Shown: piece by piece, positions 1 to 36,043 of the stretch | Layout of the letters: each line of letters opens with the position of its first letter | Numbering within the stretch: the first letter of the stretch is position 1 | Origin: a virus | Lineage: Duplodnaviria; Heunggongvirae; Uroviricota; Caudoviricetes | IMG/VR virus record: IMGVR_UViG_2693429599_000012 | Span: 1-36,043 of that record | Direction: 5' to 3' (one strand) | Length of the DNA: 36,043 nucleotides | The notes under the pieces: generated by a model | Database searches by the model: none | The model's input: the letters and a program-made list of their open reading frames with translations, nothing else | Told to the model about the DNA's origin: nothing | Position numbers and translations under genes: made by a program

Positions 1-351
1 ATGCGAGAGACAGTCGAAATTATGCGTTATCCCGTCACTCTTACACCCGCGCCGGAAGGCGGTTATATGGTTTCTTTTGTGGATATCCCTGAAGCGTTGA
101 CCCAGGGCGAAACTGTCGCTGAAGCGATGGAAGCGGCAAAAGATGCTTTACTGACCGCATTTGATTTTTATTTTGAAGATAACGAGCTTATCCCTTTACC
201 TTCGCCATTAAATAGTCACGATCACTTTATTGAAGTACCTTTGAGCGTCGCCTCTAAGGTATTGCTGTTAAATGCTTTTTTACAGTCAGAAATCACTCAG
301 CAAGAGTTAGCCAGGCGAATTGGCAAACCTAAATGTTGTAAACCCCAATAA
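1..351 (+). CDS. hicB: HicB-family antitoxin-like protein, C-terminally truncated or divergent
   Basis: ORF from ATG at 1 (alternative ATG at 22, MRYPVTLTPAPEGGYMVSF...). The first ~105 aa match my recollection of enterobacterial HicB through ...ITQQELARRIGKPK, then the ORF ends with CCKPQ-stop instead of continuing through the C-terminal DNA-binding region. No hicA is in the window. Confidence 0.6.
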   Translation: MRETVEIMRYPVTLTPAPEGGYMVSFVDIPEALTQGETVAEAMEAAKDALLTAFDFYFEDNELIPLPSPLNSHDHFIEVPLSVASKVLLLNAFLQSEITQQELARRIGKPKCCKPQ

Positions 352-362
352 CTAAAATTTTT

Positions 363-396
363 GCAATAAAAAAGCCCCATCACAAGGACAGGGCTA
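363..396 (-). terminator. Putative rho-independent terminator for the 415-720 minus-strand gene
   Basis: On the minus strand a short GC stem (AGCCC...GGGCT) is followed by TTTTTTATTG, immediately downstream of the stop of the minus gene. Confidence 0.35.
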
Positions 397-414: not shown

Positions 415-720
415 TCACTTAATATCTTTCATTTTACGGATACGCGCGCTTGCTTCCGGTAGTTCATCCAGTGTTACGTGATAAGCAAGCATACAGACAG
501 GAGTCGGATCGAATCCCTCATGAGTATTGATCAGATGGCTATTCCCGCCTTTAAATTCATCCTGTCCATCCCACATAGCGTACACGTCATCTTCTGCTAC
601 ATAGATAATCAATCCAATAGGGGAGTTAGTAAGCTGGAAGATGCAGCCAGTAGAATCAATACGATGTTCCCGAACGTCATCAACAGTTTCAAATTCAATC
701 TTAATATCTTTAGTCTTCAT
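415..720 (-). CDS. Hypothetical protein (101 aa)
   Basis: Intact ORF with a GAGGG Shine-Dalgarno 6 nt upstream of the ATG and a terminator-like hairpin downstream. No family recognised. Confidence 0.5.
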   Translation of the reverse strand: MKTKDIKIEFETVDDVREHRIDSTGCIFQLTNSPIGLIIYVAEDDVYAMWDGQDEFKGGNSHLINTHEGFDPTPVCMLAYHVTLDELPEASARIRKMKDIK

Positions 721-1019
721 GATTTGCCCTCGCGTGAAAAATATTTTCGATTATTTATAAAAAAGACTTGACAAAATCAAAAGGTACTGTTCCACGGGTG
801 AAATAAAGCGAGTTTTCGGCACCCCGGTATTTGATGTGCGTGTGAGATTTCAAAACAGGTGCAGTGCAGCCCACCAGCGCGGTCGCTACGCGACTATTAA
901 CACCAGCCAATCCCTTTCCCTGCCTCGATCTTTCCCTTCGTTATAAAGCGTTTTAGGCGCTCTCCTGAATGCGCAGATCAGATAAATAATTTTACGCAAA
1001 TTTAATGGAGGATAACCGG

Positions 1020-1574
1020 ATGAAAGAAGAATTAACCCTTACAGAAATTTCCCGCTTATACGGCTATACAATTAACGCCGCTAAGAAATGGTTAGAAAGG
1101 GGTCTACCCTATAATACCAATAGCCGTCGCGTGCCAGCCAAAGAAGGAACAGAATGGGTCCTAAAGAACATCATCAACCCGCTTAAAGAAACTACGGTCA
1201 AGGAACAAATCGACGTAGAGAAATTGCGACGGGAAAGAGCATTAGCAGATGCAGCCGAACGAGAGAACCAGGAAGCGATGAATCTCCTGATTCCCGTCGG
1301 GTATGTGGAGCAGGAGCTAGCGGAATACTGCGGGAAAGTGAAGCAGACTATTTTGCAGATCGCCACAATCGACGCTTTAGAAATTCTCGAATCTGCGAGT
1401 GACCAGAAAACATTAAAGAATAAGCTAAGGGAGATTATCGAGCGTCGTTTAAATGAAGTAGGTGACTTGTTCGAAAATGCAGATTTGGGAGAAGACGAGG
1501 AAGAAGAATTACCATTAATGGATGAACCGGAAGAACAAGAACCAGAAGAAGACGATGAATTTGATGTGTCTTAA
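1020..1574 (+). CDS. Nu1-like DNA-binding protein, candidate terminase small subunit, with acidic C-terminal tail
   Basis: GGAGGA RBS 7 nt upstream of the ATG at 1020 (ORF track starts at 1005). N-terminal HTH-like LTLTEISRLYGYTINAAKKWLERGLPY and a following EKLRRE segment resemble lambda Nu1 architecture. C-terminus is strongly acidic (EDEEEELPLMDEPEEQEPEEDDEFD). Confidence 0.45.
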   Translation: MKEELTLTEISRLYGYTINAAKKWLERGLPYNTNSRRVPAKEGTEWVLKNIINPLKETTVKEQIDVEKLRRERALADAAERENQEAMNLLIPVGYVEQELAEYCGKVKQTILQIATIDALEILESASDQKTLKNKLREIIERRLNEVGDLFENADLGEDEEEELPLMDEPEEQEPEEDDEFDVS

Positions 1575-1668: not shown

Positions 1669-1953
1669 ATGGCTACTTTTATTACCTATGCTGTCATCAT
1701 TACTATTCTGGCTGCTATCTCTGCTTATAAACTCGGAACCGAACCGAAAGAACGAGGCGAATTATTCTTAGGTGCGTTTGTTGCATTTGCTAGCCTTGCG
1801 TTAATTGTCGAAGGGATTTCTTATATTGTTGGCCTAGTTAGTATGACACTTTTTAACTTCCATCCGGCTATTTCTATGCATCTACTGCTTACTGTATGCT
1901 GGGTATATTGCTTAATCGAATTTTTAACGTTTGTTTTCAAACAGACTAAATAA
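1669..1953 (+). CDS. Small integral membrane protein (94 aa, about 3 predicted TM segments)
   Basis: AAGAGGA RBS; three hydrophobic stretches (FITYAVIITILAAISAY, LFLGAFVAFASLALIVEGISYIVGLV, LLLTVCWVYCLIEFLTFVF); followed by two strong terminators. Confidence 0.55.
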   Translation: MATFITYAVIITILAAISAYKLGTEPKERGELFLGAFVAFASLALIVEGISYIVGLVSMTLFNFHPAISMHLLLTVCWVYCLIEFLTFVFKQTK

Positions 1954-2112
1954 TATTGTAATCTGCCTTTTCTCCTTATGTGGTTTTAACAGGGAATTTT
2001 CGAAAGAGAGTTCCCGATTAAAAGCCATAAAACACATTCAGTACAGTGTTTTCATAGTCAGTGATCTATACAACATAAAAACATAACAAGTATAGATTGA
2101 GTATTAATCCTC

Positions 2113-2138
2113 CCGCCCCTTCGGGGGCGGTTATTTTT
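2113..2138 (+). terminator. Rho-independent terminator with TTCG tetraloop
   Basis: CCGCCCC-TTCG-GGGGCGG (7 bp stem) followed by TTATTTTT. Confidence 0.65.
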
Positions 2139-2215
2139 CTGGCTTTACTAGATAATGTAGCATTATGTTCATTATAACCTCATCTTTGTTGTGCAAACCT
2201 AACCTAAACTTACTA

Positions 2216-2240
2216 GGGACTCTTCGGAGTCCCTTTTTTT
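2216..2240 (+). terminator. Rho-independent terminator with TTCG tetraloop, possibly bidirectional
   Basis: GGGACTC-TTCG-GAGTCCC followed by TTTTTTT; it abuts the stop codon of the convergent minus-strand gene. Confidence 0.65.
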
Positions 2241-3180: not shown

Positions 3181-3291
3181 TATAAATACTCCGTGGAAAG
3201 TTAGTTTTAATTGTTCATCGCAAAAGCCTCCTTGTTGCCGCAAGGGGGCTTTTTTATTTTTAAAGCCATCATATAATTCTCAGTCAAAGTA

Positions 3292-3474: not shown

Positions 3475-3514
3475 CTCGAATCCTCCTACAATGTGGATTA
3501 ATGATTTCTTAAAA

Positions 3515-4233: not shown

Positions 4234-4320
4234 CGGGGATCGGGCGTGCATAGATATTATATAACACATTCGCTACGCTCATGTGTAAAACCAAAAACAA
4301 CAAATAACCAAAAAGATATT

Positions 4321-5672: not shown

Positions 5673-6500
5673 ATGAATACTGTTACTACTATGAATACCG
5701 CTGTTAAAACTGCTTCCGTGTCTCTGGTTGTTGATAACACCAAACCGCTGACCATGTCTTCTCGTCAGATTGCTGAATTTACCGATAAGAAGCACAGCAA
5801 TGTAATGCGCGATATTCGCGAAATGTACGAATCTTTAGGTATTATCGATCAGCTCAAAACTGAATTTGTCGAGAGAATCAATAACTTAGGATATGCTGTT
5901 AAAGAACCAGTATATCACTTAGACGAAGAAATGACGCTGACTCTTGTCACTGGTTACGATGTTAAGCGTCGAATGGTTGTTATTCAGGAATGGAAGCGAC
6001 TGAAAGAAGAAAATGAAAAACTGCGTCAGGAACGTTTAGCCGTTAACCCGTATGCAGACTTTGAAGAAACCGACTGGATCGAACTGGCATTAAAGAAAAC
6101 TCGCGAAAATAAAAAGCTGATTGAACTTCATGTTCGCAAATCAGTAGATAGCCATTCAATGACCCGTCTGTTAGGCGCTAAAAAGGGCGCTACGAAGGTT
6201 AAAGAAGCACTAACGGCCTTGCGTACTGCTGGCTACATTGAGCGCGTCTACGATGAAAATAACAAGCCGTGTGGGTATGTTGCTAATGACTCTTCTCTGT
6301 CTTTCTGCCGCATGAATGCTCACTACCAACTTGAATTTACTGTTGATGTTCTTCCTGTGTTGGTTGAATTGGGTATTCTGGAAGAAGAACAAAAAGCAAC
6401 TCTGAATCTTCCTAAGCCGAACAACACTATTCTGATTCAAAACAAAGCGGCTGAACGTCTCCGCCAGAATGTTGGATCACTGGAAGTCTTCGGACTGTGA
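5673..6500 (+). CDS. Rha-family phage regulatory protein / antirepressor
   Basis: N-terminal motif LTMSSRQIAEFTDKKHSNVMRDIREM is typical of the phage pRha domain; AGGGGGA RBS; terminator downstream. Confidence 0.75.
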   Translation: MNTVTTMNTAVKTASVSLVVDNTKPLTMSSRQIAEFTDKKHSNVMRDIREMYESLGIIDQLKTEFVERINNLGYAVKEPVYHLDEEMTLTLVTGYDVKRRMVVIQEWKRLKEENEKLRQERLAVNPYADFEETDWIELALKKTRENKKLIELHVRKSVDSHSMTRLLGAKKGATKVKEALTALRTAGYIERVYDENNKPCGYVANDSSLSFCRMNAHYQLEFTVDVLPVLVELGILEEEQKATLNLPKPNNTILIQNKAAERLRQNVGSLEVFGL

Positions 6501-7570: not shown

Positions 7571-9475
7571 ATGAAACTAATTTCTAATAAGGCCAAATTA
7601 AAAAAGATTCTTAAAAATATCTCTGCTGCAATTCGACCGCCTAAAGCCATGAAACCTAGCGAATGGGTAGAGGCTAATGTAGTTGCTACCGATGGTGTTA
7701 AAGCCGGATCGCTAATTAAATTGCATCCCTTCCAACGTGGAATGATGGACGCGATCACCGAAGACCGTAGAAAAATTGTGTTTAAATGTTCGGCGCAGTT
7801 GGGTAAGACCATGATTCTTAACGGAATTATCTTCCATCGGATCGCGAGTAACCCTACTAATATTGGGGTCTTGCAAAGTAACGTTAGGGAACTAAATTCT
7901 TGGATCGCTGGTAAGGTGAAGCCAGTATTAGAGGCAACGCCAGAATTAAAAGCGATGATCACCGACAAATCAGATCGCAATGCCGTTAACAACTCATCGA
8001 TTATTCAGCTTCGTAACGGATCGTTTATGTATTTCATGTCGTTGAATAGTCCGTCACATCTTCGCGGTAAAACACTCCCTTTGATTATTCTTGATGAAGT
8101 TGATGCGGCTGATGAGTCAGACGAAGGGAACCCGATCCAGCTAGCGGAACAACGCGCAACCACTTTCGGGGAAGATGCAAGGATCGTAATTGCTTCCACT
8201 CCAACCGCTCGTGATGGGGCGATTAACCAACAATGGGAACTCTCGGATAAGAGAAAATATCATGTCGTTTGCCAGCATTGCGGACACAAGCACGTAATGG
8301 AATGGAGTAACGTACATTTCGATTGGCATACGATTAACGGTAAATCATTACCCAACCCAGATACAGCCGTTTACCGTTGCCCTGAATGTGAAACCGACTG
8401 GACCGAAGGGGATCGCCTCCGTGCTGTTGCTCAGGGAGAATGGGTCGCCACCGAACCTAATGCGGAAGTAATCGGTTTTCATGCTAACCGCCTTATGTCT
8501 CCGTTTAGTTCTATCCGTGCGTGTGTGGTGGACTTTGCTGATAGCTACGCGAATATGTCGCTGGCAACGTTCTATAATGTGGTGCTCGGTGAAACCTTCG
8601 ATGATCTTAACGAAGATCGCACAGCCGACGAACTGGAAACGCTGAAAACTGATATTAGCCTAGACAATATTCCTGATGATGTACTGGCTCTGGTAGGTGG
8701 AGTTGACCAGCAAAAAGACCGTCTGGAATCTACCTTGCTGGGTATCTCTCGTAAGGGGATATGCGTAGTTGATCACCGATCATTCTATGATGTGAACTGC
8801 GAACGCCACGAATCGCCAGCATATGACCAGCTTTATAACTTCCTGAAAGCGAAATTCTATACCCGATCCGGTGAACGAATCCCGATGCTATCTGCTTTCG
8901 TGGACTCATCGAACGGACGAGCTACAAACGTGATCTACCGTTTTTGCACTAGGTGGCAAAACCTATGCGCCATTAAAGGCGCAAGTAATGCTGATGCTCC
9001 AATCCTTCCGGCTAAGGACACAAGAACGGGTGGTTTTACCCTTAAAATTCTGGGCGTAAACAACCTTAAAACGATGATCCGTGAAATGATTAACCGGAAC
9101 TTGAGAGACAGCGATCCTCATACGGTCTTCCAGATTGGCGACGTTCCTGATGACTATTGCGAGCAATTGCTTTCTGAACAGTTGAAACGGCAGGGTAATA
9201 CCACACGTTGGGTAAAAGTTGGTCAGCAACGAAACGAGGCTCTCGACTGCCTGGCTTATTCCTATGCTGCTTCTCGCCATGTACTCAATAAAATGTCATG
9301 GGAAAAACTCGAAGCCATCAAAGATAGTTTGAACCGTGAACCAGAAGAATCCGTAGAAGCTCCTAAATCGCAATCTGACGAGAAAATAGAAGAAACTAAG
9401 CCAATCACACGACCACAACGTAAAAACATCGCCAGACGCCCAAATAGAGGCCGTAGCTGGGTAACATCGTTCTAA
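7571..9475 (+). CDS. Terminase large subunit (lambda GpA-like)
   Basis: Walker A-like KCSAQLGKT and Walker B-like LIILDEVD; HPFQRGMMDAI near the N-terminus; 634 aa; positioned upstream of the portal gene. Confidence 0.85.
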   Translation: MKLISNKAKLKKILKNISAAIRPPKAMKPSEWVEANVVATDGVKAGSLIKLHPFQRGMMDAITEDRRKIVFKCSAQLGKTMILNGIIFHRIASNPTNIGVLQSNVRELNSWIAGKVKPVLEATPELKAMITDKSDRNAVNNSSIIQLRNGSFMYFMSLNSPSHLRGKTLPLIILDEVDAADESDEGNPIQLAEQRATTFGEDARIVIASTPTARDGAINQQWELSDKRKYHVVCQHCGHKHVMEWSNVHFDWHTINGKSLPNPDTAVYRCPECETDWTEGDRLRAVAQGEWVATEPNAEVIGFHANRLMSPFSSIRACVVDFADSYANMSLATFYNVVLGETFDDLNEDRTADELETLKTDISLDNIPDDVLALVGGVDQQKDRLESTLLGISRKGICVVDHRSFYDVNCERHESPAYDQLYNFLKAKFYTRSGERIPMLSAFVDSSNGRATNVIYRFCTRWQNLCAIKGASNADAPILPAKDTRTGGFTLKILGVNNLKTMIREMINRNLRDSDPHTVFQIGDVPDDYCEQLLSEQLKRQGNTTRWVKVGQQRNEALDCLAYSYAASRHVLNKMSWEKLEAIKDSLNREPEESVEAPKSQSDEKIEETKPITRPQRKNIARRPNRGRSWVTSF

Positions 9476-10052: not shown

Positions 10053-11564
10053 ATGTTTAATCTTTTTCGACGCAAAAAGGCGGTAGAAACTCCAGTTAAA
10101 ACTAATCACCGCCAGCAACAACCAAAAATTTTCATCGACAAACAAGTAGAAAAATTCCAGAAAGATTTGTCTAAGCGTTCTTTGGGCTTGGTCGGTGATC
10201 GCATTGATGGATCACTTCAACAAGACACCATTACAGGAACCTTCAATAAGGCTCTCAAATCGAACGGTAAGCGTCTTTATGATCAGGGTCGTACTCTGGC
10301 CTTAAACACTTCCGTTGGCAGTCGCTACACGCAATACATCACCGATATGGTGGTTGCTACTGGCCTAGATCCTAAGCCGTCAATCGTTAAATCAAATGGC
10401 AAACTTGATAGCGCACTGAATAAGCAGATCGAGAATGCTTTCTGGAAGTGGGCGCAGAACGCTAAACGCTTCTCTCGTAACGGTCGTTTTAACTTCCGTG
10501 AACTGCTGGTAATGGCTGAACGTGAGCGCGTTATGGGTGGTGAGTGCTTCATCGTTTTAACCAAAGAAAACAATGAGTTAAATGTTTCTATCCTGTCTGC
10601 TGATAAGTGCGACTGGTCGCTCAACCGTGAAGTAAGCAAAGACCGTGCGATATTTCAGGGGATTGAGTATGACGTAGAAACAATGCGCCCTGTTGCATAC
10701 TGGTTTCGTAAAGTCAATCTACTGACTCAGACCTACACAGGTGATAACTATCGTGTCGAGGCTTCGCAAGTATGCCATTATTATCAACCACTTACGGCTG
10801 AATCTCTGCGTGGTGTGACTGACTTCCTACCAGTGATCAAGGATATCGCACATCAAGACGCATTCCGCGAAACTGCAATTATCCAGAAACGCATTGCAGC
10901 TAGCTCTATGGGCTTTATCGAACGTCCGAAAGATTCTGGTGACGATTTTGATACTGGCGAAGATGAAGACCAATATCAAGTGCCGGAAGTAGTACAGGAT
11001 TTTGCACCGGGTACTATTCAGGAATTGCCGGAAGGGGCAACGATTAAATCAATCCAAGCTACTCAATCAGGCGATGACTTTAACAGCTTCAATGATGCGA
11101 TGTTCACTAGCGTATCAATGGGCTTAGGCGTGTTTAAACAGGGCTTGACTGGTGATACTTCCCAGATCAACTACAGCGCCGCGCGTTTTGGTGAATTAAC
11201 TCAGCGTAACCGCGTTAAAGCACTGCAAAACAAATTAATTGAAACAGTGGTATTGCCAATTTTCGAAGCATATCTACGCCATTATTCCGCGCGTGGTATT
11301 GTTCCGATTCGTATTACTGCAATTCCGCATATTATCGATAACACTACTATTATTCGTCCGCGTTTTGAATCCGTCGATCCATTTAAAGACGTAAGCGCCG
11401 AGATTGCTTTAATTGATAACGGACTTAAATCACGTACTGCCGTTATTCTTGAACGTGGTGATGATCCTGAAAAAGTATTCTCAGAGATTCAAGCCGAAAA
11501 GAGCGCACTAAATATTATCGTTAATGGCGAGGGTGAAGAAAAAAATTCCCCAGCCGATCCCTAA
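10053..11564 (+). CDS. Portal protein
   Basis: 503 aa; immediately downstream of the terminase large subunit and upstream of the protease-capsid gene; acidic segment DSGDDFDTGEDEDQYQ. Called mainly from size and synteny. Confidence 0.7.
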   Translation: MFNLFRRKKAVETPVKTNHRQQQPKIFIDKQVEKFQKDLSKRSLGLVGDRIDGSLQQDTITGTFNKALKSNGKRLYDQGRTLALNTSVGSRYTQYITDMVVATGLDPKPSIVKSNGKLDSALNKQIENAFWKWAQNAKRFSRNGRFNFRELLVMAERERVMGGECFIVLTKENNELNVSILSADKCDWSLNREVSKDRAIFQGIEYDVETMRPVAYWFRKVNLLTQTYTGDNYRVEASQVCHYYQPLTAESLRGVTDFLPVIKDIAHQDAFRETAIIQKRIAASSMGFIERPKDSGDDFDTGEDEDQYQVPEVVQDFAPGTIQELPEGATIKSIQATQSGDDFNSFNDAMFTSVSMGLGVFKQGLTGDTSQINYSAARFGELTQRNRVKALQNKLIETVVLPIFEAYLRHYSARGIVPIRITAIPHIIDNTTIIRPRFESVDPFKDVSAEIALIDNGLKSRTAVILERGDDPEKVFSEIQAEKSALNIIVNGEGEEKNSPADP

Positions 11565-11609: not shown

Positions 11610-13610
11610 ATGCTTAAATTTCGCCGCGAACTTAACGGTTACGGTGGAGTTATTAACGAAGGGCATAACGATCAATACGAATTTGAAATTGCTTTCTCCA
11701 GTGAACAGCCTTATCAGCGCCAATTCTGGGATGAGCAAAATCAAGAAATGGTGGTATTAGATGAAATTCTGGTACATACACCGGAAGCGGTTGATCTGTC
11801 TCGTCTGAATAATAACGCTCCGTTGCTGTTTAATCATAATTTCGATAATCACATTGGCGTCGTTTGTAACGCTCGAATCGATGCGGATAAAGTAGGCCGT
11901 GCGACCGTTAGATTCTCTAAGCATGGCACTTTGGCTAATGATATTCGCAATAAAGTCATTGAAGGTACGATGGAAAAAATTTCTGTCGGTTATGACATTA
12001 AAGAATATCACATCGATTATGCCAAAGGACAATTGATTGTTACTAAGTTTGTTCCTTTCGAATTAAGTTTTGTTACGGTCCCGGCGGACGATTCGGTCGG
12101 TTTAAATCGCTCTCTAAATACTATCACAGTTAATTTGGAGGCTAAACGCGATATGACTAAAGAACAAATTGAAGAAATCAAAGAAGAACAAGAATCCGCT
12201 CAGGTTGAAGAAACTCCGGTAGAAGAAAATAAAGAATCGGAAGTAGAAGAAACTCAAGAGCGCCAAGTTGAAGAGAATGAAGAAAATGAAAATCTCGAAG
12301 ACGGAAAAGACGCTGAACATCCTGAAAGTGTTGATGATGATAGTTCAACTGTTCGGGAAGCAGAAGAAGTAAAAGAAGAACGTGAAGCCGCTCCGGTTGA
12401 AGAAGAAAAAACCGAGGAAGTGGCTGAACGTTCCGAAGAAGACGAATTAGAAATCCGCGAGATCGCGCGGGAACTAAATATTGACGACGAAGAATTAAAA
12501 CGCGCATTGGCAATTAAAGACATGACGCCGGAAGCATTCCGCACTAAGGCACTAAATAACATTACCAATGCTCAACGTAATAACGAACAAATTAAGGAAT
12601 CTAAAATGGAAAAAACTTTTGACCTGAACAACGTAATTCGCTCTCTGGTAGATGGTGCTGCTCTGGGTGCTAACGAAGCCGAGTTTTCTGCTATGGCTGC
12701 TGGTGCTGCAATGCAGCGTGGTCGTGCTGCTCGTGGTGGCTCTGTATTCGTTCCGACTGCTGCTATGCGTGCTGCTGCTGATGGTAACACCAAAACTACT
12801 CTGGAAGCTGTAACCGACGAAAAACTGCTGAATGATTCCTATGTAGCGATGCTGTTACCGGAATCCGTTCTGGGTCGTCTTGGTGTGAAAGTCCTGTCTG
12901 GTCTGACTTCGCCGACTGCTATTCCGAAAATGACCGCTTCCAGCGTTGAATCTTTCGGCTTCGTTGATGAAAACGGTGCTGCACCGGAAGGTAAAGCAGA
13001 ATTTGCAAACGTGAAAATGGCTCCGAAAACTTTTGCTGGTGGCAACCCGATCAGCCGTCAGTCTCTGAAAACCGTTCCGGGCATCGCTACCCTGATCACT
13101 GATCACATTAACCAGGCTGTTCGCATCAAACTGGAACAACTGATTCTGTCTGATAAAGATAATGCTCGTGGTCCGGCTGGTGTGATTAAACAACTGGTTG
13201 ATGCAAGCCGTGTTGAGAAGAAAGCTGCTTTCTCTTACAAAGACTTCCTGAAAGAAATCGCTAAACTGACCGACGCTGGCGTTCCTGCTCAGGCGATCAA
13301 GTTTGCGATGAGCGGTGCAACTGCTGCTGAACTGGAATCTACCCTGAAAGATAACGGCGTTTCCGGTTATATCATCGAAAACGGTAAACTGGCTGGTTAC
13401 GAAGTAGTTACTTCTGGTGTTATTCCGGTAGACCACATCGTTCTGGGTGACTTCTCCGCTATTACCATCGGTGAATGGGGCGGTCTTGAGCTAGATCTGG
13501 ACGATTCAACCTACAGAGCACAGGGCGCGATCGTTCCGCGTATCTGGGTAGATCTGGATTATGTTGTTACTCAGCCGGAAGCTCTGAAAGTTCTTCACAT
13601 CTCCGAATGA
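11610..13610 (+). CDS. Fused prohead protease (HK97/U35-like), acidic scaffold-like linker and major capsid protein
   Basis: N-terminal ~170 aa carry protease-like motifs (ISVGY, ELSFVTVPADDSVG); residues ~180-300 are a highly acidic, repetitive linker; the C-terminal ~350 aa look like an HK97-fold capsid protein. Confidence 0.75.
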   Translation: MLKFRRELNGYGGVINEGHNDQYEFEIAFSSEQPYQRQFWDEQNQEMVVLDEILVHTPEAVDLSRLNNNAPLLFNHNFDNHIGVVCNARIDADKVGRATVRFSKHGTLANDIRNKVIEGTMEKISVGYDIKEYHIDYAKGQLIVTKFVPFELSFVTVPADDSVGLNRSLNTITVNLEAKRDMTKEQIEEIKEEQESAQVEETPVEENKESEVEETQERQVEENEENENLEDGKDAEHPESVDDDSSTVREAEEVKEEREAAPVEEEKTEEVAERSEEDELEIREIARELNIDDEELKRALAIKDMTPEAFRTKALNNITNAQRNNEQIKESKMEKTFDLNNVIRSLVDGAALGANEAEFSAMAAGAAMQRGRAARGGSVFVPTAAMRAAADGNTKTTLEAVTDEKLLNDSYVAMLLPESVLGRLGVKVLSGLTSPTAIPKMTASSVESFGFVDENGAAPEGKAEFANVKMAPKTFAGGNPISRQSLKTVPGIATLITDHINQAVRIKLEQLILSDKDNARGPAGVIKQLVDASRVEKKAAFSYKDFLKEIAKLTDAGVPAQAIKFAMSGATAAELESTLKDNGVSGYIIENGKLAGYEVVTSGVIPVDHIVLGDFSAITIGEWGGLELDLDDSTYRAQGAIVPRIWVDLDYVVTQPEALKVLHISE

Positions 13611-24938: not shown

Positions 24939-25358
24939 ATGCTAAAAACTAGGCTTATCACCGATTATATCAATTCTTTAATAGGTCAGGAGTTCGTTCA
25001 AGGCGAGAATGATTGCAATCTCATTGCATGTAAGATCATCGATATTCTCGCTGGTACTGACCTATATAATTCTCTTTATAAAAAATATTCAACTAAAGAA
25101 GAAGGCTTGAAAATCTGCAAAGAATTAAGCGGGTATTCAAATATCCTTCAACCAATTAAGAAACATTTCAAATTAGTCACTGATGACTTACAGGACGGCG
25201 ACTTACTGGTCACAGCCCACAAATTAGGAAACCGCAAATATTATTCCGTAGTTCCTCATTATTCCGGTTATGGCCTCGTTGAAGAAGATGGTATCTGGAT
25301 GACCATTCCTGTTTCAGACATTGACTATGAACAAGTTTATAGATTCGGGGGTGAATAA
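24939..25358 (+). CDS. Tail assembly protein with NlpC/P60-like motif (gpK-like)
   Basis: GGAGG RBS; QGENDCNLIA resembles the NlpC/P60 catalytic Cys motif of lambda K (HGVTDCYTLF), with downstream His-containing HYSGYG. Confidence 0.5.
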   Translation: MLKTRLITDYINSLIGQEFVQGENDCNLIACKIIDILAGTDLYNSLYKKYSTKEEGLKICKELSGYSNILQPIKKHFKLVTDDLQDGDLLVTAHKLGNRKYYSVVPHYSGYGLVEEDGIWMTIPVSDIDYEQVYRFGGE

Positions 25359-28300
25359 TGGGATTTGAAGTATTGGTAGGCGCGGTTATTGCTGGTGCGT
25401 CTGCTGGGATGGCTGCTGCTGCAACATTTTCTGTTATGACCGCAGTCGCTATCGGTATGGCTGCTGGTGCAATGACCTTGATTGCTTCCACTGTAGGCGC
25501 ACCAAAAACACCGAAAGTACAAAGCCCGGATAATGCGGTGACACTAGGAACATCAAACGATCCGAAGACAGTATTACCCGTTCTTTTCGGTACTACCCGA
25601 ACTGGTGCAATCTGCGTTTACAAAGCAATTTCACAGCGTGAAAATAACAAACTGGTACAAATTTTTGCTATTGCCGAAGGTGAGATCGATCACTTTAAAG
25701 CACTGCACATCGATAATAAAAATGTTCTCATTAGTCAGAATATGACAATTCGTGATGGCATTCTCGATAAAGGAAACATTAAAGACGAATATCGCAAAGT
25801 GTTAGAAGTCGAGTTTCGCACGGGTAAAAATCCTAACACTGCATTAGATCTTGCTAAACATCATTTGGGCGCTGATTGGGATGATCGGTATCAGGGTAAC
25901 GGCATTGCGACCATGTGTATTGTTTTACGTCGTGATGACAAATCTTTGGCTGCTGGTGTTGATATTCTCCAGCCTAATAGCCAGGTAGCGGTCGATGTTA
26001 TGGGCTTAAAAATCCGTAACCTTGAAACCAATGCTATTGAGGCAAGCACTAACGGCGTGGACCAGATTTTCCACTACCTAACAAATGAAAAATATGGCTT
26101 ATCCGTACCAATTGAAAACATCAACGTTGATTCATTCCTGAAAGTACGTAAACAAGTACGCCAGATGGACCTACATTCAAACGGTGCATGTGATCCGAAC
26201 GCCAGCTTTAAAGAGAACTTAACTAGCCTTATGCAGACTTTCGGCGGGGTAATGTTCGAATCCTTCGGAAGAATTACTCTGAAACTGGATGCTCCTGATA
26301 TTGTTAAGCATACCTTCAATGAAGACAATATCATGATGGGAAAAGTATCACTGAAAACAGGTGGCACTAACGGTTATTTCAATACCATTAACGCGATGTA
26401 TCAAGAACCATCAATCGACTATTCAGAGCAAATGCTACGTTATCCGGCTGATGCTGAAAACGATGCTACTATTCGTCAAGATGGTCGAATTATCGCTAAA
26501 GATATTGAATATCGTTTTGTTAAGTCTAAAGCCCAGATTGATAAACTTGCGAGTATTGAACGAAATAAATCTCGTATCACTCAGGTTATCAGCTTTATGA
26601 CTACTGACGCATTCACTGCCGAAGTTTGGGACGTTATCAGCGTAACCTATGATGAATTAAAACTGAATAATTCACTTTGGCGTATTACTGCAATTGATCG
26701 CTCGATTGATTCTGGTATTGCTGGGATGATGACTATCACCGCCACAGAATATAATTCTCAGGTTTATACTGACCTGAACTATGCGGCGACTCCAGACAAT
26801 AGACCTACTGGTTTACCGGATTCAATGACAGTACAGAAACCGACTAATTTCAGAATTAAGGCAACTGGTGAGACAATCCACGGTAAAAACGTAACTTTGA
26901 CATGGGATGCACCGGAAGATTTTAACCGCTACGGTTTCCAGATTGATTATCGTGTGAGTGGATCACCTAACTGGATTAAGCTGGGACAGACTTCACAGCA
27001 AATTTTCAATATCAATGCACTGGCAAAAGATCGCTCCTACGATTACCGCGTTTGTGCTTTCGGTATTATTGCTCGTTCCGAATGGGTGGAACTGGTTAAC
27101 CAGAATCCAGAAGTTACCTATGAACTGCCTACGCCAGTGATCCGCATCAAAAATCAGGGGAGCACACCAGGAACTTTTGAAGGCAATGATCTGATTATCG
27201 AATGGGAAAATCAGCAAGCCTTAGATGTGGTTATCAACGGTGAAGCTAACAAGTTTAGTGACCTGTTTGAAGCATACATTATCAAGGTAACTAACAAGGC
27301 TGGTAAGTCTATTCAGTACCGTACCCGCGACCCTGAATCATGGATTTATACGCTTGATATGAACCAGTTTAACGGCCTTTCCCGTGAATTGACGGTAGAA
27401 GTATCCGTTAAGGGCTATAACAACTCAGAGAGCGCCCCAGCGCGTTTAGTGGCTATTAACCCACAACATAAGCCAATGAAAGGTTTTAGTGCGCGTGGTG
27501 GCTTTAATACTGCGTTTGTTAGCTGGGCGGATGACGTAGAACATGACTATGCAGGGTCAATCATCCAGTATGCAACCGATAATACTTTCTCCGATGCAAG
27601 GGCAGTGACTACCAATAGCGTTAGTCATACTTCCTTTGATTTGGCTGACGGTGATTATTATATCCGTGGTGCTCACTATGATATTTTCGGTATGGATGAT
27701 GCTGTTTGGTCTGAACCGTATTTCATGCAAATGAAATCTACCATTAGCTGGGACGATCAGGACAAAGAAGCACTGGAAGACCTGATTGGTTTACAAGACC
27801 GCTTAGATGAAACTATCGCGGATGCTATTGCTCAAGCTGGCGCTAATGCCGATGCTAAAATTGATGCAATGCATAAGCAAATCACTACCGAAACAGGGCA
27901 GACGGTCCAAGCCTCAGCCAATACCTTAAAGAGTCTGATTGCTACCAGCGAGCAAGCTAGCTCCACTAAGATTGATCAGGTTAAAGCTGAACTGAAAGGC
28001 GATATCACCAAAGAAGTTAGCGCATCCGCTACTACCCTGAAACAAGCAATTGCTACCAGTGAGGCAGCAAGCGCAAGTAAGATTGATCAAGTTCGGGTAG
28101 AAATGGATGGCAAGATTGCTGGTGTGAATCAGGAAGCAGATGTAAAAATCGATGCTTTGAAGGGAACCATTAACAGCAAATATAATCTGGCAGTTAATGC
28201 AGATGGTCGCGTGGCTGGTATTCATATGAGCGCAACCAATGATCCGGCAGAACCGACGAGAATCATCTTTACGGCTGATAAAATCGCGGTAGCTCCACAA

Positions 28301-29134
28301 GACGGATCCGAAGTTTGTCCGTTTGGCATCGAAGATAACAAGGTTTATCTCGATAATGCAATGATTCGTAATGCTGCAATTGGCACAGCCCAGATTAGTG
28401 ATGCGGCTATTACCACGGCTAAGATCGGCACAGCCCAGATTAACGGTGCTCACATCCAGCACGCACAGATCGGAACAGGTCATATTATTGATGGCTCTAT
28501 CGATAATGCTAAAATTGGTAACTATATCCAGTCTTATAACTGGAATGGTAACGATGGATGGTATATCGGGAAGGATGGCACTTGTCATTTTAGACACGCT
28601 AACATTCGTGGTCATTTGGTGGCTGATTCCGGCGAAATGAACAACGTAACGATTAATTCAAGTTGCCGCATTTTGGGTATGCTTGATGCTAATCAGGTGC
28701 GTGGTGACTTCGTGAAAGCTATTGGTCGTCGATTCCCACATTGGGACGAAAACCCATCATTGGGCTATCCCGGTTATCCGCAAGGTACAATCACTGTTCG
28801 AATTGAAGATGATCACCCGTTTGATCGTCAGATTATCGTTCCGGCTATTAGCTTTGGTGGTCTTAATGCGCGTGAAGGCTCGAATAACAATACTTACTAT
28901 GATAACTGTCGCTTGATTGTTCGCAAGAACGGTGCTGAATTATATAACCGTGCATATGGTAGACAGACTGGATTGTATAGTGCTGTTATTGATATGCCAG
29001 CCGGACACGGACCAGTTACGCTAACTTTTGAAGTAAGTTCAAGCGCAATCAACAACTGGACTCCCAGCACATGGATCAGCGATCTTTCTGTAATTGTTAC
29101 TAAGAAAGCCGCTACGGGTATTTCTGTTTCTTAA
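25358..29134 (+). CDS. Tail tip host-specificity protein (lambda J-like), N-terminally fused to a gpI-like segment
   Basis: 1258 aa. C-terminus (DDHPFDRQIIVP...DMPAGHG...KKAATGISVS) parallels the lambda J C-terminus (DDHPFDRQIVV...DMPAGRG...KKQALGISVV). N-terminal 90 aa (Gly/Ala-rich hydrophobic, then APKTPKVQ...VLPVLFG) resemble the C-terminal part of lambda gpI. Confidence 0.85.
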   Translation: MGFEVLVGAVIAGASAGMAAAATFSVMTAVAIGMAAGAMTLIASTVGAPKTPKVQSPDNAVTLGTSNDPKTVLPVLFGTTRTGAICVYKAISQRENNKLVQIFAIAEGEIDHFKALHIDNKNVLISQNMTIRDGILDKGNIKDEYRKVLEVEFRTGKNPNTALDLAKHHLGADWDDRYQGNGIATMCIVLRRDDKSLAAGVDILQPNSQVAVDVMGLKIRNLETNAIEASTNGVDQIFHYLTNEKYGLSVPIENINVDSFLKVRKQVRQMDLHSNGACDPNASFKENLTSLMQTFGGVMFESFGRITLKLDAPDIVKHTFNEDNIMMGKVSLKTGGTNGYFNTINAMYQEPSIDYSEQMLRYPADAENDATIRQDGRIIAKDIEYRFVKSKAQIDKLASIERNKSRITQVISFMTTDAFTAEVWDVISVTYDELKLNNSLWRITAIDRSIDSGIAGMMTITATEYNSQVYTDLNYAATPDNRPTGLPDSMTVQKPTNFRIKATGETIHGKNVTLTWDAPEDFNRYGFQIDYRVSGSPNWIKLGQTSQQIFNINALAKDRSYDYRVCAFGIIARSEWVELVNQNPEVTYELPTPVIRIKNQGSTPGTFEGNDLIIEWENQQALDVVINGEANKFSDLFEAYIIKVTNKAGKSIQYRTRDPESWIYTLDMNQFNGLSRELTVEVSVKGYNNSESAPARLVAINPQHKPMKGFSARGGFNTAFVSWADDVEHDYAGSIIQYATDNTFSDARAVTTNSVSHTSFDLADGDYYIRGAHYDIFGMDDAVWSEPYFMQMKSTISWDDQDKEALEDLIGLQDRLDETIADAIAQAGANADAKIDAMHKQITTETGQTVQASANTLKSLIATSEQASSTKIDQVKAELKGDITKEVSASATTLKQAIATSEAASASKIDQVRVEMDGKIAGVNQEADVKIDALKGTINSKYNLAVNADGRVAGIHMSATNDPAEPTRIIFTADKIAVAPQDGSEVCPFGIEDNKVYLDNAMIRNAAIGTAQISDAAITTAKIGTAQINGAHIQHAQIGTGHIIDGSIDNAKIGNYIQSYNWNGNDGWYIGKDGTCHFRHANIRGHLVADSGEMNNVTINSSCRILGMLDANQVRGDFVKAIGRRFPHWDENPSLGYPGYPQGTITVRIEDDHPFDRQIIVPAISFGGLNAREGSNNNTYYDNCRLIVRKNGAELYNRAYGRQTGLYSAVIDMPAGHGPVTLTFEVSSSAINNWTPSTWISDLSVIVTKKAATGISVS

Positions 29135-33354: not shown

Positions 33355-35034
33355 TTAAATTCCAAATTCCTGTAATGGACCTGGTATTTCCTCTTCTGGT
33401 TTCCAGTTCTTATCTGTCAGCATGTCTAAACATGGATGCAAAACAAGCCCGTTACTTTCCAGAATCTGTCTATCATTGATAGTTTTCAAATCAACGAAGA
33501 TCCGGCCTTTCCTCGGTCCTCTTGAATTTTCTATTACAACTCTCTGGGTCTTGCCATCGATGTATTCCAGTACAAACAAGTTTTTGTACTTGTCAATCCT
33601 GCTACACCCGATCCGTTTTAGAGCTTGCTTAATCTTAAACCGGACCTTAATGCGATCCTCGTTGTAAACATCTTCTAAATCAAATTCTGCGAGCTTCTCC
33701 CAGCCTTGAGAGTCAACAGAATACATTTCCTCTTCTGCCATCTTAATTTGATTGTAGAGTGTTTCACGCTCGCTATTGAGGGTAGTAATCTGATCGGCTA
33801 GCTCCTTCGTTGCTCCTGTCATAGCAGAAAGGGTAATCAGGTTATCAATCTTGCGTGATATTTCATCAATCTGTACTTTCAAAGCCGGAACCGGATTAGC
33901 CTTATCCTCAGCAATCCAGATTTTATCAGCCAGCAATTGCAATACAGCTTTCTCTAATTGATCACCTCGAAAACTCCAGTTTGTATGCACACATGCAATA
34001 CGACTAGAGCGCATTGCATCGCATGAATAACGATATTGGTTAGGACGTTTGTTAGTTCCTTTCACCTTAACCATAGCGGAACCGCAATGTTCACATTTCA
34101 ATAGACCAACACCACTAAGCAAGGGAATAGGTTTAACTTCTTCCTTGTCTCCATAGTTACATGCTCTAACACCAATGCTTTTCTTAAGGTGATAAAACTC
34201 AGCGTCATCTAGCACACGAGGATAATAATCCTTTAACTCATACTTAACGCCATCTACAGAGATTTCCTTGATACCAATCAAAGCGCGGGTATGGAACAAC
34301 CTTTCAATCATTGCCCGTGACCAGTTTGAATGCCTCTTGTGACTTGCGGCTGGTGGTGGTGTGTATGTCGCGTTAAGGTGATCCAGTATCTCGGCGGTTG
34401 ACCGTCCATTCCTGCGTAATTCCACAACTTCCTGAACAATAGGGAAGAAGACCGGATGAGGAAGCACATAACCAGATGTGGTATCAGTCCACCACATATT
34501 CTTTCCAATTTCCTCGATTGCAACAGCCGGATTTTGTGGATTTTCTTGATGAGCTTTAATCTTAATCAATGCGCTTGAGTTAGTACGATTGCGCTTAGTC
34601 TGACTTTCCTCGTTAGCTCTCGCAAACAACATGACACTCAACAGCAAATCAATAGGATTGGCATTAACCGATTCCTTGCTATAGACCTTACCATCCATGC
34701 CAGTTACGATAGTTATTCCCCTACGGATAATCGAGAGAAATAGCTCTTGTGCTTCAATGATGGATTGGCGAGAGATACGGTCTAAGTTTTCCACAACCAG
34801 CCAGCTACCAACCGGAACGGATCGACCAATCTCATCCAGAAAGCGAGATAGTGCACCTGTTCTACTGTTAGCCCCTTTGAATGCAGATACACCAAAATCC
34901 TGATAGCTTGTAACTAGCTCAAGATCATATTTTGCGGCTATCTCTGCGGCTGTTCTCTTCTGGCGTTCATAAGAACTACCATCCGCTTGCTTCATAGACG
35001 AGAAGCGAATATACGAATACAGTTTAGTTTTCAT
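33355..35034 (-). CDS. Large serine recombinase (integrase-type)
   Basis: N-terminal resolvase-type catalytic motif YSYIRFSSMKQADGSSYERQ (catalytic Ser in FSS); recombinase domain; zinc-ribbon-like CEHCGS...YRYSCDAMRSSRIAC; C-terminal coiled coil. Start placed at ATG complement 35032-35034 (the track's 35049 start is TTG). Confidence 0.85.
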   Translation of the reverse strand: MKTKLYSYIRFSSMKQADGSSYERQKRTAAEIAAKYDLELVTSYQDFGVSAFKGANSRTGALSRFLDEIGRSVPVGSWLVVENLDRISRQSIIEAQELFLSIIRRGITIVTGMDGKVYSKESVNANPIDLLLSVMLFARANEESQTKRNRTNSSALIKIKAHQENPQNPAVAIEEIGKNMWWTDTTSGYVLPHPVFFPIVQEVVELRRNGRSTAEILDHLNATYTPPPAASHKRHSNWSRAMIERLFHTRALIGIKEISVDGVKYELKDYYPRVLDDAEFYHLKKSIGVRACNYGDKEEVKPIPLLSGVGLLKCEHCGSAMVKVKGTNKRPNQYRYSCDAMRSSRIACVHTNWSFRGDQLEKAVLQLLADKIWIAEDKANPVPALKVQIDEISRKIDNLITLSAMTGATKELADQITTLNSERETLYNQIKMAEEEMYSVDSQGWEKLAEFDLEDVYNEDRIKVRFKIKQALKRIGCSRIDKYKNLFVLEYIDGKTQRVVIENSRGPRKGRIFVDLKTINDRQILESNGLVLHPCLDMLTDKNWKPEEEIPGPLQEFGI

Positions 35035-35656: not shown

Positions 35657-36043
35657 TTAAGCGCGAACGATGGTCAGAGTATCCAGCAAACCTTTTTCGT
35701 ATAATTCGAAACACGTTTTATATTGCTCAATCTGGAAACCATAGCGGGTGATCTTATTCAGTAGAATAATCACGGTATTCTCATCTAGGTATTGTCCTTG
35801 CTTACCAATTACATATGACTCGCGGGATAGTCTCAGCTTACGGAAACCTTTAACACCTAATTCCTTAGCCACCGCTTTAATCTCTTTAATCTCACCCTCA
35901 GCAGCTACATATTCAGCGTCGATAATCTCAGGTGATGATCTCAGTGCTACCAGAACTAAGGCCATTGCTTCTTCTTCGGTACGAGCAACACCAGCTTTCT
36001 CGAAAGTCATCTCGCCAAATTTACGAATCATGATATTGAACAT
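35657..36043 (-). CDS. Hypothetical protein (128 aa or longer; may extend past the window edge)
   Basis: ORF reaches the last base of the window with an ATG at the edge; no motif recognised. Confidence 0.45.
   Translation of the reverse strand: MFNIMIRKFGEMTFEKAGVARTEEEAMALVLVALRSSPEIIDAEYVAAEGEIKEIKAVAKELGVKGFRKLRLSRESYVIGKQGQYLDENTVIILLNKITRYGFQIEQYKTCFELYEKGLLDTLTIVRA

What the first reader, a model, noticed from the sequence alone, without database searches (positions are those of the whole stretch)
1..360. HicB antitoxin ORF ends prematurely: candidate host/prophage junction inside hicB
The N-terminal ~105 aa look like a HicB-family antitoxin up to ...ITQQELARRIGKPK, then the frame ends with CCKPQ-stop, whereas full-length HicB continues ~30 aa through a C-terminal DNA-binding region. 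Everything downstream is phage-like. That is the signature of integration into the 3' end of a host gene, which is common for serine-integrase elements, and a large serine recombinase is encoded at 33355-35034. If so, the antitoxin would lose its DNA-binding domain while keeping the toxin-neutralising domain. The alternative is that the phage itself carries a truncated hicB-like gene.
Basis: partly seen in the sequence, partly recalled or inferred. Interest (0 to 1): 0.65.

Follow-up and report, generated by a model that had tools for sequence, protein, structure and literature searches.

The report
Prophage junction inside antitoxin gene hicB
The short hicB reading frame at the start of the window is the left junction (attL) of a ~35.8-kb E. 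coli prophage that a large serine integrase inserted into the chromosomal antitoxin gene hicB, removing its DNA-recognition helix: a familiar kind of event at an attachment site I could not find described.

Summary
Window 1-333 is 100% identical to E. coli K-12 hicB, and identity stops abruptly after codon K104 of 138. Five phage-derived codons (CCKPQ) and a stop follow. Assemblies that carry the window's exact last gene show, 42 nt past the window's end, the same 9-bp core (AAACCTAAA), the missing 34 hicB codons and then ydcR. Excision would therefore rebuild hicB exactly. The element encodes a 559-aa large serine recombinase (Resolvase + Recombinase + Zn-ribbon). The reconstructed attP has its dyad centre on an AA dinucleotide (window 325-326). 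A sister prophage, whose integrase is 87% identical, splits ycdX and shares only that AA with its attB, which points to AA as the crossover. The truncation keeps the HicA-neutralising N-terminal domain. It deletes HTH helix 3 and the C-terminal dimerising strand. Loss of hicO/P2 autorepression is inferred, not shown. The same attL is in 35 of 5,426 complete E. coli genomes, and the exact chimeric protein is on about 600 contigs (E. coli, Shigella sonnei). hicA is annotated intact in 27 of the 35. No isolated phage is close, no attP form was found, and no paper was found naming this site. Verdict: real, correctly read, a new member of a known kind, of moderate interest.

The parts
1..333 (+). 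Host-derived 5' part of hicB (annotated start codon at 22; last native codon is K104 at 331-333)
   Evidence: 100% identical to K-12 b1438 through 333, unrelated afterwards; annotated as partial hicB in near-identical genomes
1..351 (+). Chimeric ORF HicB': native residues up to K104, then phage-derived CCKPQ and TAA (349-351)
   Evidence: exact protein on 592 contigs (116-aa call) and 23 contigs (109-aa call); Pfam keeps HicB_lk_antitox and loses HTH_3
325..333 (.). 9-bp block AAACCTAAA shared by attL, attR, attB and the reconstructed attP; the probable 2-bp crossover is AA at 325-326
   Evidence: Overlap analysis of attL/attR against attB; attP dyad centre falls on AA at 325-326; the sister ycdX-type sites overlap by AA only
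327..352 (.). attP-derived right half-site (ACCTAAATGTTGTAAACCCCAATAAC); supplies the CCKPQ-stop tail
   Evidence: Matches the reverse complement of the left half-site seen at attR in 14 of 26 positions, best of all centres tested
373..395 (-). Terminator-like hairpin plus T-run ending the first prophage gene (convergent with hicB')
   Evidence: on the + strand the hairpin is weak, z = -1.3, with no T-run
415..720 (-). First prophage gene, 101 aa, unknown function; this is a variable cargo slot next to attL
   Evidence: No Pfam, PHROG or PADLOC hit; in O55:H7 DEC5A an LprI-family gene occupies the slot; the AF2 model is unusable
1005..1574 (+). Terminase small subunit
   Evidence: phrog_57, E = 3.6e-14
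5673..6500 (+). Rha/anti-repressor-like regulator
   Evidence: Pfam Phage_pRha, E = 3e-12; anti-repressor PHROGs
7571..9475 (+). Terminase large subunit, full length (lambda gpA type)
   Evidence: GpA_ATPase, E = 5e-62, plus GpA_nuclease, E = 2.5e-46
10053..11564 (+). Portal protein (lambda family)
   Evidence: Phage_portal_2, E = 1.7e-62
11610..13610 (+). Prohead protease - major capsid fusion
   Evidence: Peptidase_S78 plus Phage_capsid
25358..29134 (+). J-like tail tip protein
   Evidence: Ig_GpJ_C and Phage_Tail_Tip
33355..35034 (-). Large serine recombinase (integrase), 559 aa; N-terminus MKTKLYSYIRFSSMKQ
   Evidence: Resolvase 11-158, Recombinase 203-291, Zn_ribbon_recom 315-373; the exact protein is on 385 contigs
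35657..36043 (-). Last prophage gene (128 aa). In near-identical assemblies attR (core plus the displaced hicB 3' end) begins 42 nt beyond the window's end, so it is outside the window

Best explanation
Window 1-351 is the attL junction of a ~35.8-kb siphovirus-like prophage integrated in the chromosomal hicB gene of E. coli. The prophage's own large serine recombinase (33355-35034, minus strand) recombined a ~54-bp imperfectly palindromic attP with a related sequence inside hicB. The attP is GTTATTGTGGGGGCATTATATTAGGG-AA-ACCTAAATGTTGTAAACCCCAATAAC. The hicB sequence is ...GAATTGGC-AA-ACCTAAACAGGAG..., at codons 102-104. The crossover most likely lies at the AA dinucleotide, window 325-326. 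The gene is split conservatively, with no duplication and no loss. The 5' 104 codons stay behind hicA and pick up five phage codons and a stop. The 3' 34 codons are moved ~35.8 kb away, next to ydcR. Shown: the junctions, the split, the recombinase domain architecture, the recurrence of the event in many strains, and that the sequences allow exact restoration on excision. Inferred: the product HicB' keeps the N-terminal partial RNase-H domain whose helix alpha1 blocks HicA, so it probably still neutralises the toxin. It has lost HTH helix 3, the later helices and the C-terminal beta-strand through which E. coli HicB dimerises. It should therefore no longer bind the hicO operator, leaving the HicB-repressed P2 promoter constitutively open. 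The choice of hicB appears to be driven by sequence, not function, because a sister integrase targets a similar motif in the unrelated gene ycdX.
For: Identity to K-12 hicB is 333/333 and then collapses. ETEC1717 carries a copy that is 99.7% identical over the window's last 5 kb and about 96% identical over most of the rest. Its gene order is rlhA-yncJ-hicA-hicB'(partial)-prophage-hicB 3' fragment-ydcR, and its attR sequence is ...TTATATTAGGGAAACCTAAA|CAGGAGATT.... Seven of eight assemblies carrying the window's exact last gene show, after the window-end sequence, 42 nt, the core, then QEITRLFNLHHATKIDAVQLAAKALGKELSLVMV* and ydcR. The attL/attR/attB overlap is AAACCTAAA. The best attP dyad centre is AA at 325-326 (14 of 26 arm matches), and in the ycdX-type attP it is the homologous AA (16 of 26). 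The ycdX-type attL and attR share only AA with K-12 ycdX. The integrase has the Resolvase + Recombinase + Zn_ribbon_recom architecture. HTH_3 spans residues 88-134 of HicB and is lost from the truncated form. The E. coli HicB structures 6HPB, 6HPC and 6U0I have the same sequence. Domain roles come from the literature: the N-terminal domain neutralises HicA, the C-terminal HTH binds hicO at P2, and dimerisation uses the strand after the HTH (PMC11594946). Neutralisation does not depend on the DNA-binding domain, and HicBs without one are the commonest classes (PMC10865869). The junction occurs in 35 of 5,426 complete genomes whose flanks differ (93-100% identity, both hicA alleles), which indicates independent integrations. 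hicA is annotated intact in 27 of the 35.
Against: attR is not inside the window, so the right junction is taken from near-identical assemblies and not from the source genome itself. No free or circular attP form was found in IMG/VR, JGI metagenomes or GTDB genomes. All IMG/VR relatives are prophage cut-outs. Activity of the phage and its integrase is therefore unproven. No repressor, replication gene or recombination directionality factor was recognised. The crossover dinucleotide in the hicB pair cannot be read directly, because 9 bp are identical. It rests on dyad symmetry and on the sister site. Whether HicB' is stable, still binds HicA, or derepresses P2 is untested. An intact hicA in lysogens does not prove neutralisation, because hicB (ydcQ) null mutants of K-12 are viable (my own knowledge of Button 2007 and Daimon 2015; cited indirectly in PMC11481867).
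Confidence: 0.93

Rival explanations
1. The phage itself carries a truncated hicB-like gene as cargo, so positions 1-351 are phage DNA and not a junction.
For: Phages and prophages do carry hicAB modules, for example Cyrano of LF82 (PMC9928086). HicBs without a DNA-binding domain are common (PMC10865869).
Against: There is 333/333 identity to chromosomal hicB and then an abrupt break. The upstream neighbours in complete genomes are chromosomal (rlhA, yncJ, hicA). The missing 3' end sits at the other end of the element, followed by ydcR. Sister prophages at ycdX share the sequence only from window ~325-360 onward, so window 1-324 is not part of the element.
Confidence: 0.02
2. A natural short HicB allele, or an ordinary nonsense or frameshift mutation, unrelated to the prophage.
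For: Truncated hicB pseudogenes exist in databases (PMC10865869). Various partial HicB proteins are members of the same 90% cluster.
Against: Downstream of 333 the DNA is not hicB at all. The tail codons belong to the attP arm, which is also seen next to ycdX in sister prophages. The intact 3' end is displaced, not mutated.
Confidence: 0.01
3. The insertion is real but was made by another mechanism, such as a tyrosine integrase, transposition or illegitimate recombination. On this view the serine recombinase is a bystander, for example an invertase.
For: Catalysis was not tested. One database name for a cluster member is 'site-specific invertase'.
Against: No other recombinase was recognised among the ORFs scanned. 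The recombinase lies about 1 kb from attR, as is typical for integrases. The reconstructed attP is dyad-symmetric around a 2-bp centre, and there is no target-site duplication. Where the integrase differs by 13% the target gene differs too, and the changes are concentrated in the N-terminal 375 residues (catalytic, Recombinase and Zn-ribbon domains at 81-84% identity, against 96% for the C-terminal part).
Confidence: 0.03
4. An assembly or chimeric-contig artefact joins hicB to phage DNA.
For: None specific.
Against: The same junction is present in 35 independent complete genomes, in hundreds of draft contigs and in one metagenome contig.
Confidence: 0.01

Closest known systems
Listeria phages A118 / phi10403S integrated in comK (large serine integrase)
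   Same: A temperate phage uses a large serine recombinase to insert inside a host ORF with a very short crossover core. The gene is split and can be rebuilt exactly on excision.
   Different: The integrase is not detectably close to any large serine recombinase in the PDB; the only hit is a resolvase domain at E = 2.7e-05. For phi10403S, excision acts as a regulatory switch (my knowledge). Nothing of that kind is shown here. The target here is a toxin-antitoxin gene and the truncated product may stay partly functional.
Bacillus subtilis SPbeta in spsM (SprA) and the skin element in sigK (SpoIVCA)
   Same: Large-serine-recombinase elements that interrupt a coding gene, with precise reconstitution on excision.
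   Different: Those excisions are developmentally programmed and have known directionality factors (my knowledge). No such factor or trigger was identified here.
Sister E. coli prophage integrated in ycdX (e.g. strain PEC41, NZ_CM168023.1)
   Same: It has the same prophage backbone, the same position of the integrase and a homologous attP architecture. The attB motifs are related: GGC-AA-ACCTAAA against GGA-AA-TCCCAAA.
   Different: The integrase is only 87% identical, with changes concentrated in the first 375 residues. It splits ycdX and shares only AA with its attB, against 9 bp for hicB.
Class 1/2 HicB antitoxins that naturally lack a DNA-binding domain (Gerdes 2024, PMC10865869)
   Same: These are HicBs consisting essentially of the HicA-neutralising partial RNase-H domain. 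HicB' would work like them if it is stable.
   Different: Those are 60-90-aa proteins evolving under selection. HicB' is a class-3 HTH-type HicB truncated by an insertion. It still carries two orphan HTH helices and a five-residue foreign tail.
Large serine recombinases of isolated phages (Burkholderia Bcep176/JC1; YbcK-like recombinases of E. coli lambdoid phages such as Perceval)
   Same: Same domain family. These are the best matches among 50,697 deposited phage genomes.
   Different: Only about 30% identity over about 82-85% of the protein. No deposited phage genome resembles this prophage except in a T4-like tail-fibre segment.

Membership tests
Large serine recombinase (phage integrase type) | N-terminal resolvase/invertase catalytic domain with the serine-nucleophile motif | tested here: met
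   Pfam Resolvase, residues 11-158, E = 7.7e-15. The N-terminus reads YSYIRFSSMKQ...ERQ, which fits the Y-x-R-x-S...Q pattern (my knowledge).
Large serine recombinase (phage integrase type) | Large C-terminal extension with a Recombinase domain and a zinc-ribbon domain | tested here: met
   Recombinase 203-291 and Zn_ribbon_recom 315-373; total length 559 aa.
Large serine recombinase (phage integrase type) | Short (<60 bp) attP with imperfect dyad symmetry around a 2-bp non-palindromic crossover; conservative exchange without target duplication | tested here: met
   The best dyad centre is AA (14 of 26 and 16 of 26 arm matches). The ycdX-type sites overlap by AA only. attL-left plus attR-right equals intact hicB. 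In the hicB pair the exact crossover is inferred, because 9 bp are identical.
Large serine recombinase (phage integrase type) | Demonstrated attP x attB recombination; excision dependent on a directionality factor | not testable with these tools
   This needs an in vivo or in vitro assay. No directionality-factor candidate was recognised.
HicB antitoxin, HTH type (class 3; E. coli HicB) | N-terminal partial RNase-H-like HicA-binding domain | tested here: met
   HicB_lk_antitox, E = 5.6e-08. Residues 1-104 are identical to the 138-aa K-12 HicB, whose sequence matches PDB 6HPB over its full length.
HicB antitoxin, HTH type (class 3; E. coli HicB) | C-terminal HTH DNA-binding and dimerisation domain | tested here: not met
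   There is no HTH_3 hit in the 116-aa product, whereas the full-length protein has it at 88-134. The cut falls between helix 2 and helix 3. The lost part lies at attR.
HicB antitoxin, HTH type (class 3; E. coli HicB) | Encoded directly downstream of hicA in one operon | tested here: met
   hicA lies outside the window, which starts 21 nt before the hicB start. It is present 45 nt upstream of hicB' in lysogens.
Phage regulatory switch ('active lysogeny') | A prophage interrupts a host gene and precise excision can restore it | tested here: met
   At the sequence level only.
Phage regulatory switch ('active lysogeny') | Regulated, non-lytic excision and reintegration that switches the host gene on and off | not testable with these tools
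   No attP or restored-attB molecules could be looked for within lysogen data. The attP junction is absent from the collections scanned.
Complete (inducible) temperate phage | Full packaging, head, tail and lysis modules | tested here: met
   TerS, full TerL, portal, protease-capsid and J-like tip are present. Relatives annotate a tail tube and a D-Ala-D-Ala carboxypeptidase-type lysin.
Complete (inducible) temperate phage | Recognisable repressor/immunity and replication genes; virions or free genomes observed | tested here: inconclusive
   Only a Rha-like regulator and a CapR-homology protein were recognised. No close isolated phage exists and no attP form was found.

The most novel reading that the evidence does not exclude
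The insertion is more than a neutral landing. By deleting only the operator-binding and dimerising part of HicB, the prophage would convert the autoregulated hicAB module into an unregulated form without a DNA-binding domain. That would change the HicA/HicB balance, and excision by the serine integrase would reverse it. The lysogen would then show HicA-dependent phenotypes of the kind reported for hicB/ydcQ loss (bypass of sigma-E essentiality, an altered envelope-stress response), or an altered HicAB-based anti-phage response. In effect this would be a phage regulatory switch acting on a toxin-antitoxin system in E. coli and Shigella.
Probability: 0.12. Interest if true: 0.65.

Novelty: new member of a known kind. 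Interest (0 to 1): 0.35.

Why it matters
Three points give this some value.

(1) It defines a recurrent prophage attachment site inside hicB that I could not find described. It also defines the att sites of an uncharacterised E. coli/Shigella prophage lineage with a large serine integrase, a type of integrase I believe to be uncommon among characterised coliphages.

(2) The hicB-type and ycdX-type integrases are 87% identical, and their attP and attB pairs are related but distinct. They are a natural specificity-switch pair, which could be useful for working out how large serine recombinases read DNA and for genome engineering.

(3) Hundreds of sequenced E. coli and Shigella sonnei isolates carry a HicB that lacks its DNA-binding half next to a mostly intact hicA. 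Studies of hicAB regulation, persistence, the sigma-E requirement or phage defence in such strains should not assume K-12 behaviour. Annotation pipelines currently label the fragment either a pseudogene or a 'HicB family protein'.

Tried and rejected
- **Free or circular phage form.** An exact attP 25-mer in IMG/VR and a degenerate attP 26-mer in JGI metagenomes and GTDB genomes gave no hits. As a positive control, attL was found once in metagenomes and not at all in the species-representative genomes. This absence is weak evidence, because E. coli phage DNA is sparse in those collections.
- **IMG/VR relatives of the integrase**. All are prophage cut-outs that end at gene boundaries or in host DNA. 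None crosses an attP. None is the exact source of the window.
- **Close isolated phage.** None found. Only a T4-like tail-fibre segment matches at the DNA level, and the integrase has at most about 31% identity to any phage-encoded protein.
- **Compensatory loss of hicA in lysogens.** Rejected. Eight of 35 lysogens carry a frameshifted hicA with a 22-bp deletion. The same allele is in about 814 of 5,426 genomes that mostly have intact hicB. Fisher p = 0.23.
- **** (hicB-ydcR junction query). It cannot count intact sites, because only about 20 nt of the query lie left of the core. It was not used.
- **The 101-aa gene next to attL (415-720).** It has no Pfam, PHROG or PADLOC hit. The single-sequence AlphaFold model had pLDDT 39, so no fold search was run.
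- **RNA scans of the window.** Rfam and tRNA scans found nothing.
- **Literature.** Searches for hicB/ydcQ/ycdX with prophage, integration site, attB or serine recombinase, and for the att sequences themselves, found no description of this site. Subscription journals and supplementary tables of large recombinase catalogues are not covered. The Structure 2019 paper on E. coli HicB could not be read.

Full report
**What is in the sequence.** Window 1-351 is an ORF of 116 aa ending ...ITQQELARRIGKPKCCKPQ*. Aligned to the uninterrupted hicAB locus of E. coli K-12 MG1655, it is identical at every base from 1 to 333, and from 334 on the two sequences are unrelated. The RefSeq start of hicB corresponds to window 22, because the window begins at an in-frame ATG 21 nt upstream. 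In standard numbering the product therefore has 104 native residues, ending at K104, plus five foreign ones. The full protein has 138 residues. Pfam finds the HicB_lk_antitox domain in both forms. It finds HTH_3 (residues 88-134) only in the full-length protein. The break falls in ...TQQELARRIGK-PK|QEITRLFN..., between the second helix and the recognition helix of the helix-turn-helix.

**The surroundings are a prophage.** Downstream lie the following genes:
- a small terminase subunit (1005-1574);
- a Rha-like regulator (5673-6500);
- a full-length lambda-type large terminase (7571-9475);
- a lambda-family portal (10053-11564);
- a protease-capsid fusion (11610-13610);
- a J-like tail tip (25358-29134);
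- a 559-aa protein on the minus strand at 33355-35034, with Resolvase, Recombinase and zinc-ribbon domains, which makes it a large serine recombinase.

No tRNA or Rfam family is present.

**The other junction.** The window stops at the start codon of the last prophage gene (35657-36043, minus strand), so attR is not in it. E. coli ETEC1717 carries a copy that is 99.7% identical over the last 5 kb and about 96% identical over most of the rest. Its gene order is rlhA-yncJ-hicA-hicB (partial, missing C-terminus)-prophage-hicB fragment (missing N-terminus)-ydcR. The DNA after the last phage gene reads ...CATTGTTGTACCCCCTCGTGTTATTGTGGGGGCATTATATTAGGGAAACCTAAACAGGAGATT.... I then looked up contigs encoding the window's exact last protein. 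Seven of the eight places shown have the window-end sequence, then 42 nt, then AAACCTAAA and the 34 missing codons (QEITRLFNLHHATKIDAVQLAAKALGKELSLVMV*), followed by ydcR. The eighth sits at ycdX. Joining the host part of attL to the host part of attR regenerates hicB with nothing duplicated or lost. It also rules out a simple nonsense allele or an assembly artefact.

**Anatomy of the sites.** attL, attR and attB share the 9-bp block AAACCTAAA (window 325-333). The reconstructed attP is GTTATTGTGGGGGCATTATATTAGGG-AA-ACCTAAATGTTGTAAACCCCAATAAC. Its best dyad centre, among all centres tested, is the AA at window 325-326, with 14 of 26 arm positions complementary.

A sister prophage gave independent support. 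In strain PEC41 and others the same backbone splits ycdX. There, attL and attR overlap K-12 ycdX by only two bases, again AA. The ycdX-type attP (…TTAGGG-AA-CCCGAACGTAGTCAACCCC…) has its dyad centre on that AA, with 16 of 26 matches. A 2-bp non-palindromic crossover flanked by imperfect inverted half-sites is the hallmark of serine integrases. I therefore place the hicB crossover at 325-326. This is an inference, because the 9-bp identity hides it.

The two integrases are 87% identical. The differences are concentrated in the catalytic, Recombinase and zinc-ribbon regions (81-84% identity). The C-terminal 184 residues are 96% identical. The two attB sequences resemble each other (GGC-AA-ACCTAAA and GGA-AA-TCCCAAA). 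Target choice therefore looks sequence-driven and not aimed at toxin-antitoxin genes.

**How common it is.** A query spanning hicA, hicB' and 179 nt of phage DNA is at least 80% covered in 35 of 5,426 complete E. coli genomes, and all others stop at the junction. The host flanks of these 35 range from 93% to 100% identity and include two different hicA alleles, which argues for repeated independent integrations. The lysogens include pig ETEC, human isolates and O55:H7 DEC5A. In DEC5A the cargo gene next to attL is different, an LprI family gene. The exact 116-aa chimeric protein is recorded on 592 contigs and the 109-aa call on 23, from E. coli and Shigella sonnei. The exact integrase is on 385 contigs.

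Some copies are decayed. Strain rl0044 keeps only about 6 kb plus a deletion running into host genes. ETEC1717 lacks window 5316-8822, which includes the terminase ATPase. The window's own copy has a complete large terminase.

**What the split does to HicAB (inferred).** According to the literature read here:
- the N-terminal partial RNase-H domain of HicB neutralises HicA by covering its active site;
- the C-terminal HTH binds the hicO operator of promoter P2, which yields an antitoxin-only transcript;
- E. coli HicB dimerises through the beta-strand that follows the HTH (PMC11594946);
- neutralisation is independent of the DNA-binding domain, and HicBs lacking one are the most prevalent classes (PMC10865869).

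HicB' keeps residues 1-104 and loses helix 3 onward. It should therefore be a monomeric protein that can bind HicA but cannot bind the operator, and P2 should be derepressed.

hicA is annotated intact in 27 of the 35 lysogens. The other eight carry a frameshifted allele with a 22-bp deletion. That allele is a widespread lineage polymorphism, present in about 814 of 5,426 genomes, most with intact hicB. It is not significantly enriched among lysogens (p = 0.23), so there is no sign of compensatory toxin loss. This fits retained neutralisation but does not prove it. Loss of hicB (ydcQ) is tolerated in K-12 and is known for bypassing sigma-E essentiality through HicA activation (PMC11481867, plus my own knowledge of the primary papers).

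**Is the phage active?** This remains unknown. No deposited phage genome resembles it beyond a tail-fibre segment that is 87-89% identical to T4-like long tail fibre genes. The integrase has at most about 31% identity to any protein encoded in those genomes, and no PDB hit beyond a resolvase domain. The attP junction was not found in IMG/VR, JGI metagenomes or GTDB representative genomes. attL was found once in metagenomes. IMG/VR relatives are all prophage cut-outs. No repressor, replication protein or directionality factor was recognised.

**Comparison with what is known, and novelty.** Mechanistically this is the same kind of event as A118/phi10403S in Listeria comK, SPbeta in B. subtilis spsM, or the skin element in sigK: a large-serine-recombinase element inside a coding gene that can be rebuilt on excision. 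What is new is:
- the site, hicB codons 102-104;
- the uncharacterised E. coli/Shigella prophage lineage;
- the natural pair of 87%-identical integrases with different targets;
- the specific consequence, an HTH-type antitoxin cut down to its neutralising half.

Six literature searches and a search for the att sequences themselves found no description of this site. Subscription journals and supplementary catalogues of recombinases are not covered.

I rate it a new member of a known kind with interest 0.35. The most novel reading still open is that the insertion acts as a reversible switch on HicA/HicB balance, with envelope-stress or phage-defence phenotypes. I give that about a 12% chance.

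Noticed in passing
L005 2420-2620 and L006 7180-7330 (E. coli PEC41, NZ_CM168023.1); K-12 ycdX in L034 ~463-500: A sister prophage with an 87%-identical serine integrase splits ycdX in mid-gene. Its attL and attR overlap attB by AA only. The attP arms are homologous to the hicB type but diverged, so the two form a natural specificity-switch pair.
   Followed up: yes
window 16284-19912: The tail-fibre gene (15421-18951) and the small genes after it are 78-89% identical at the DNA level to long tail fibre distal-subunit regions of virulent T4-like phages (G37-3, phiS, KFS-EC, ECML-134). This suggests exchange of a host-range module between a temperate siphovirus-like prophage and T-even phages.
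   Followed up: no
L035 329-483 (E. coli 14EC029) and ~814 of 5,426 complete genomes: A hicA allele with a 22-bp deletion, annotated 'mRNA interferase, frameshifted', is carried by about 15% of complete E. coli genomes (e.g. O103:H2, O22:H8). Most of them have an intact hicB, which leaves HicB as an orphan antitoxin/repressor.
   Followed up: partly
window 1669-7483: The region between the small and large terminase genes is about 6 kb of mostly unassignable small ORFs, with a low-coding stretch at about 3300-4860. No repressor, replication or excision-factor gene was recognised anywhere in the element. Only a Rha-like regulator (5673-6500) and a CapR-homology protein (31173-31766, minus strand) were found.
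   Followed up: partly
window 415-720 (-); L046 20813-21592: The position next to attL is a variable cargo slot. The window has a 101-aa ORF with no family hit, and O55:H7 DEC5A has an LprI-family lysozyme-inhibitor gene. The AlphaFold model of the 101-aa protein was unusable (pLDDT 39).
   Followed up: partly
L003 (E. coli rl0044) 42923-49739; L004 (ETEC1717) 6466-7118: Decayed copies exist. Strain rl0044 keeps about 6 kb of the left end fused to a truncated aldehyde dehydrogenase gene, with ydcR to patD deleted. ETEC1717 lacks window 5316-8822, which includes the terminase ATPase domain. The window's own copy has a full-length terminase.
   Followed up: partly
window 334-351 and the 42 nt beyond the window end (L004 34800-34841): The motif TGTTGTA(A/C)(A)CCCC occurs in direct orientation on both sides of the reconstructed attP: immediately right of the core, and about 40 nt left of it, where it overlaps the ribosome-binding region of the last gene. 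Its significance is unknown.
   Followed up: no
window 11610-13610: The major capsid protein is fused to an S78 prohead protease domain in a single 666-aa ORF.
   Followed up: no
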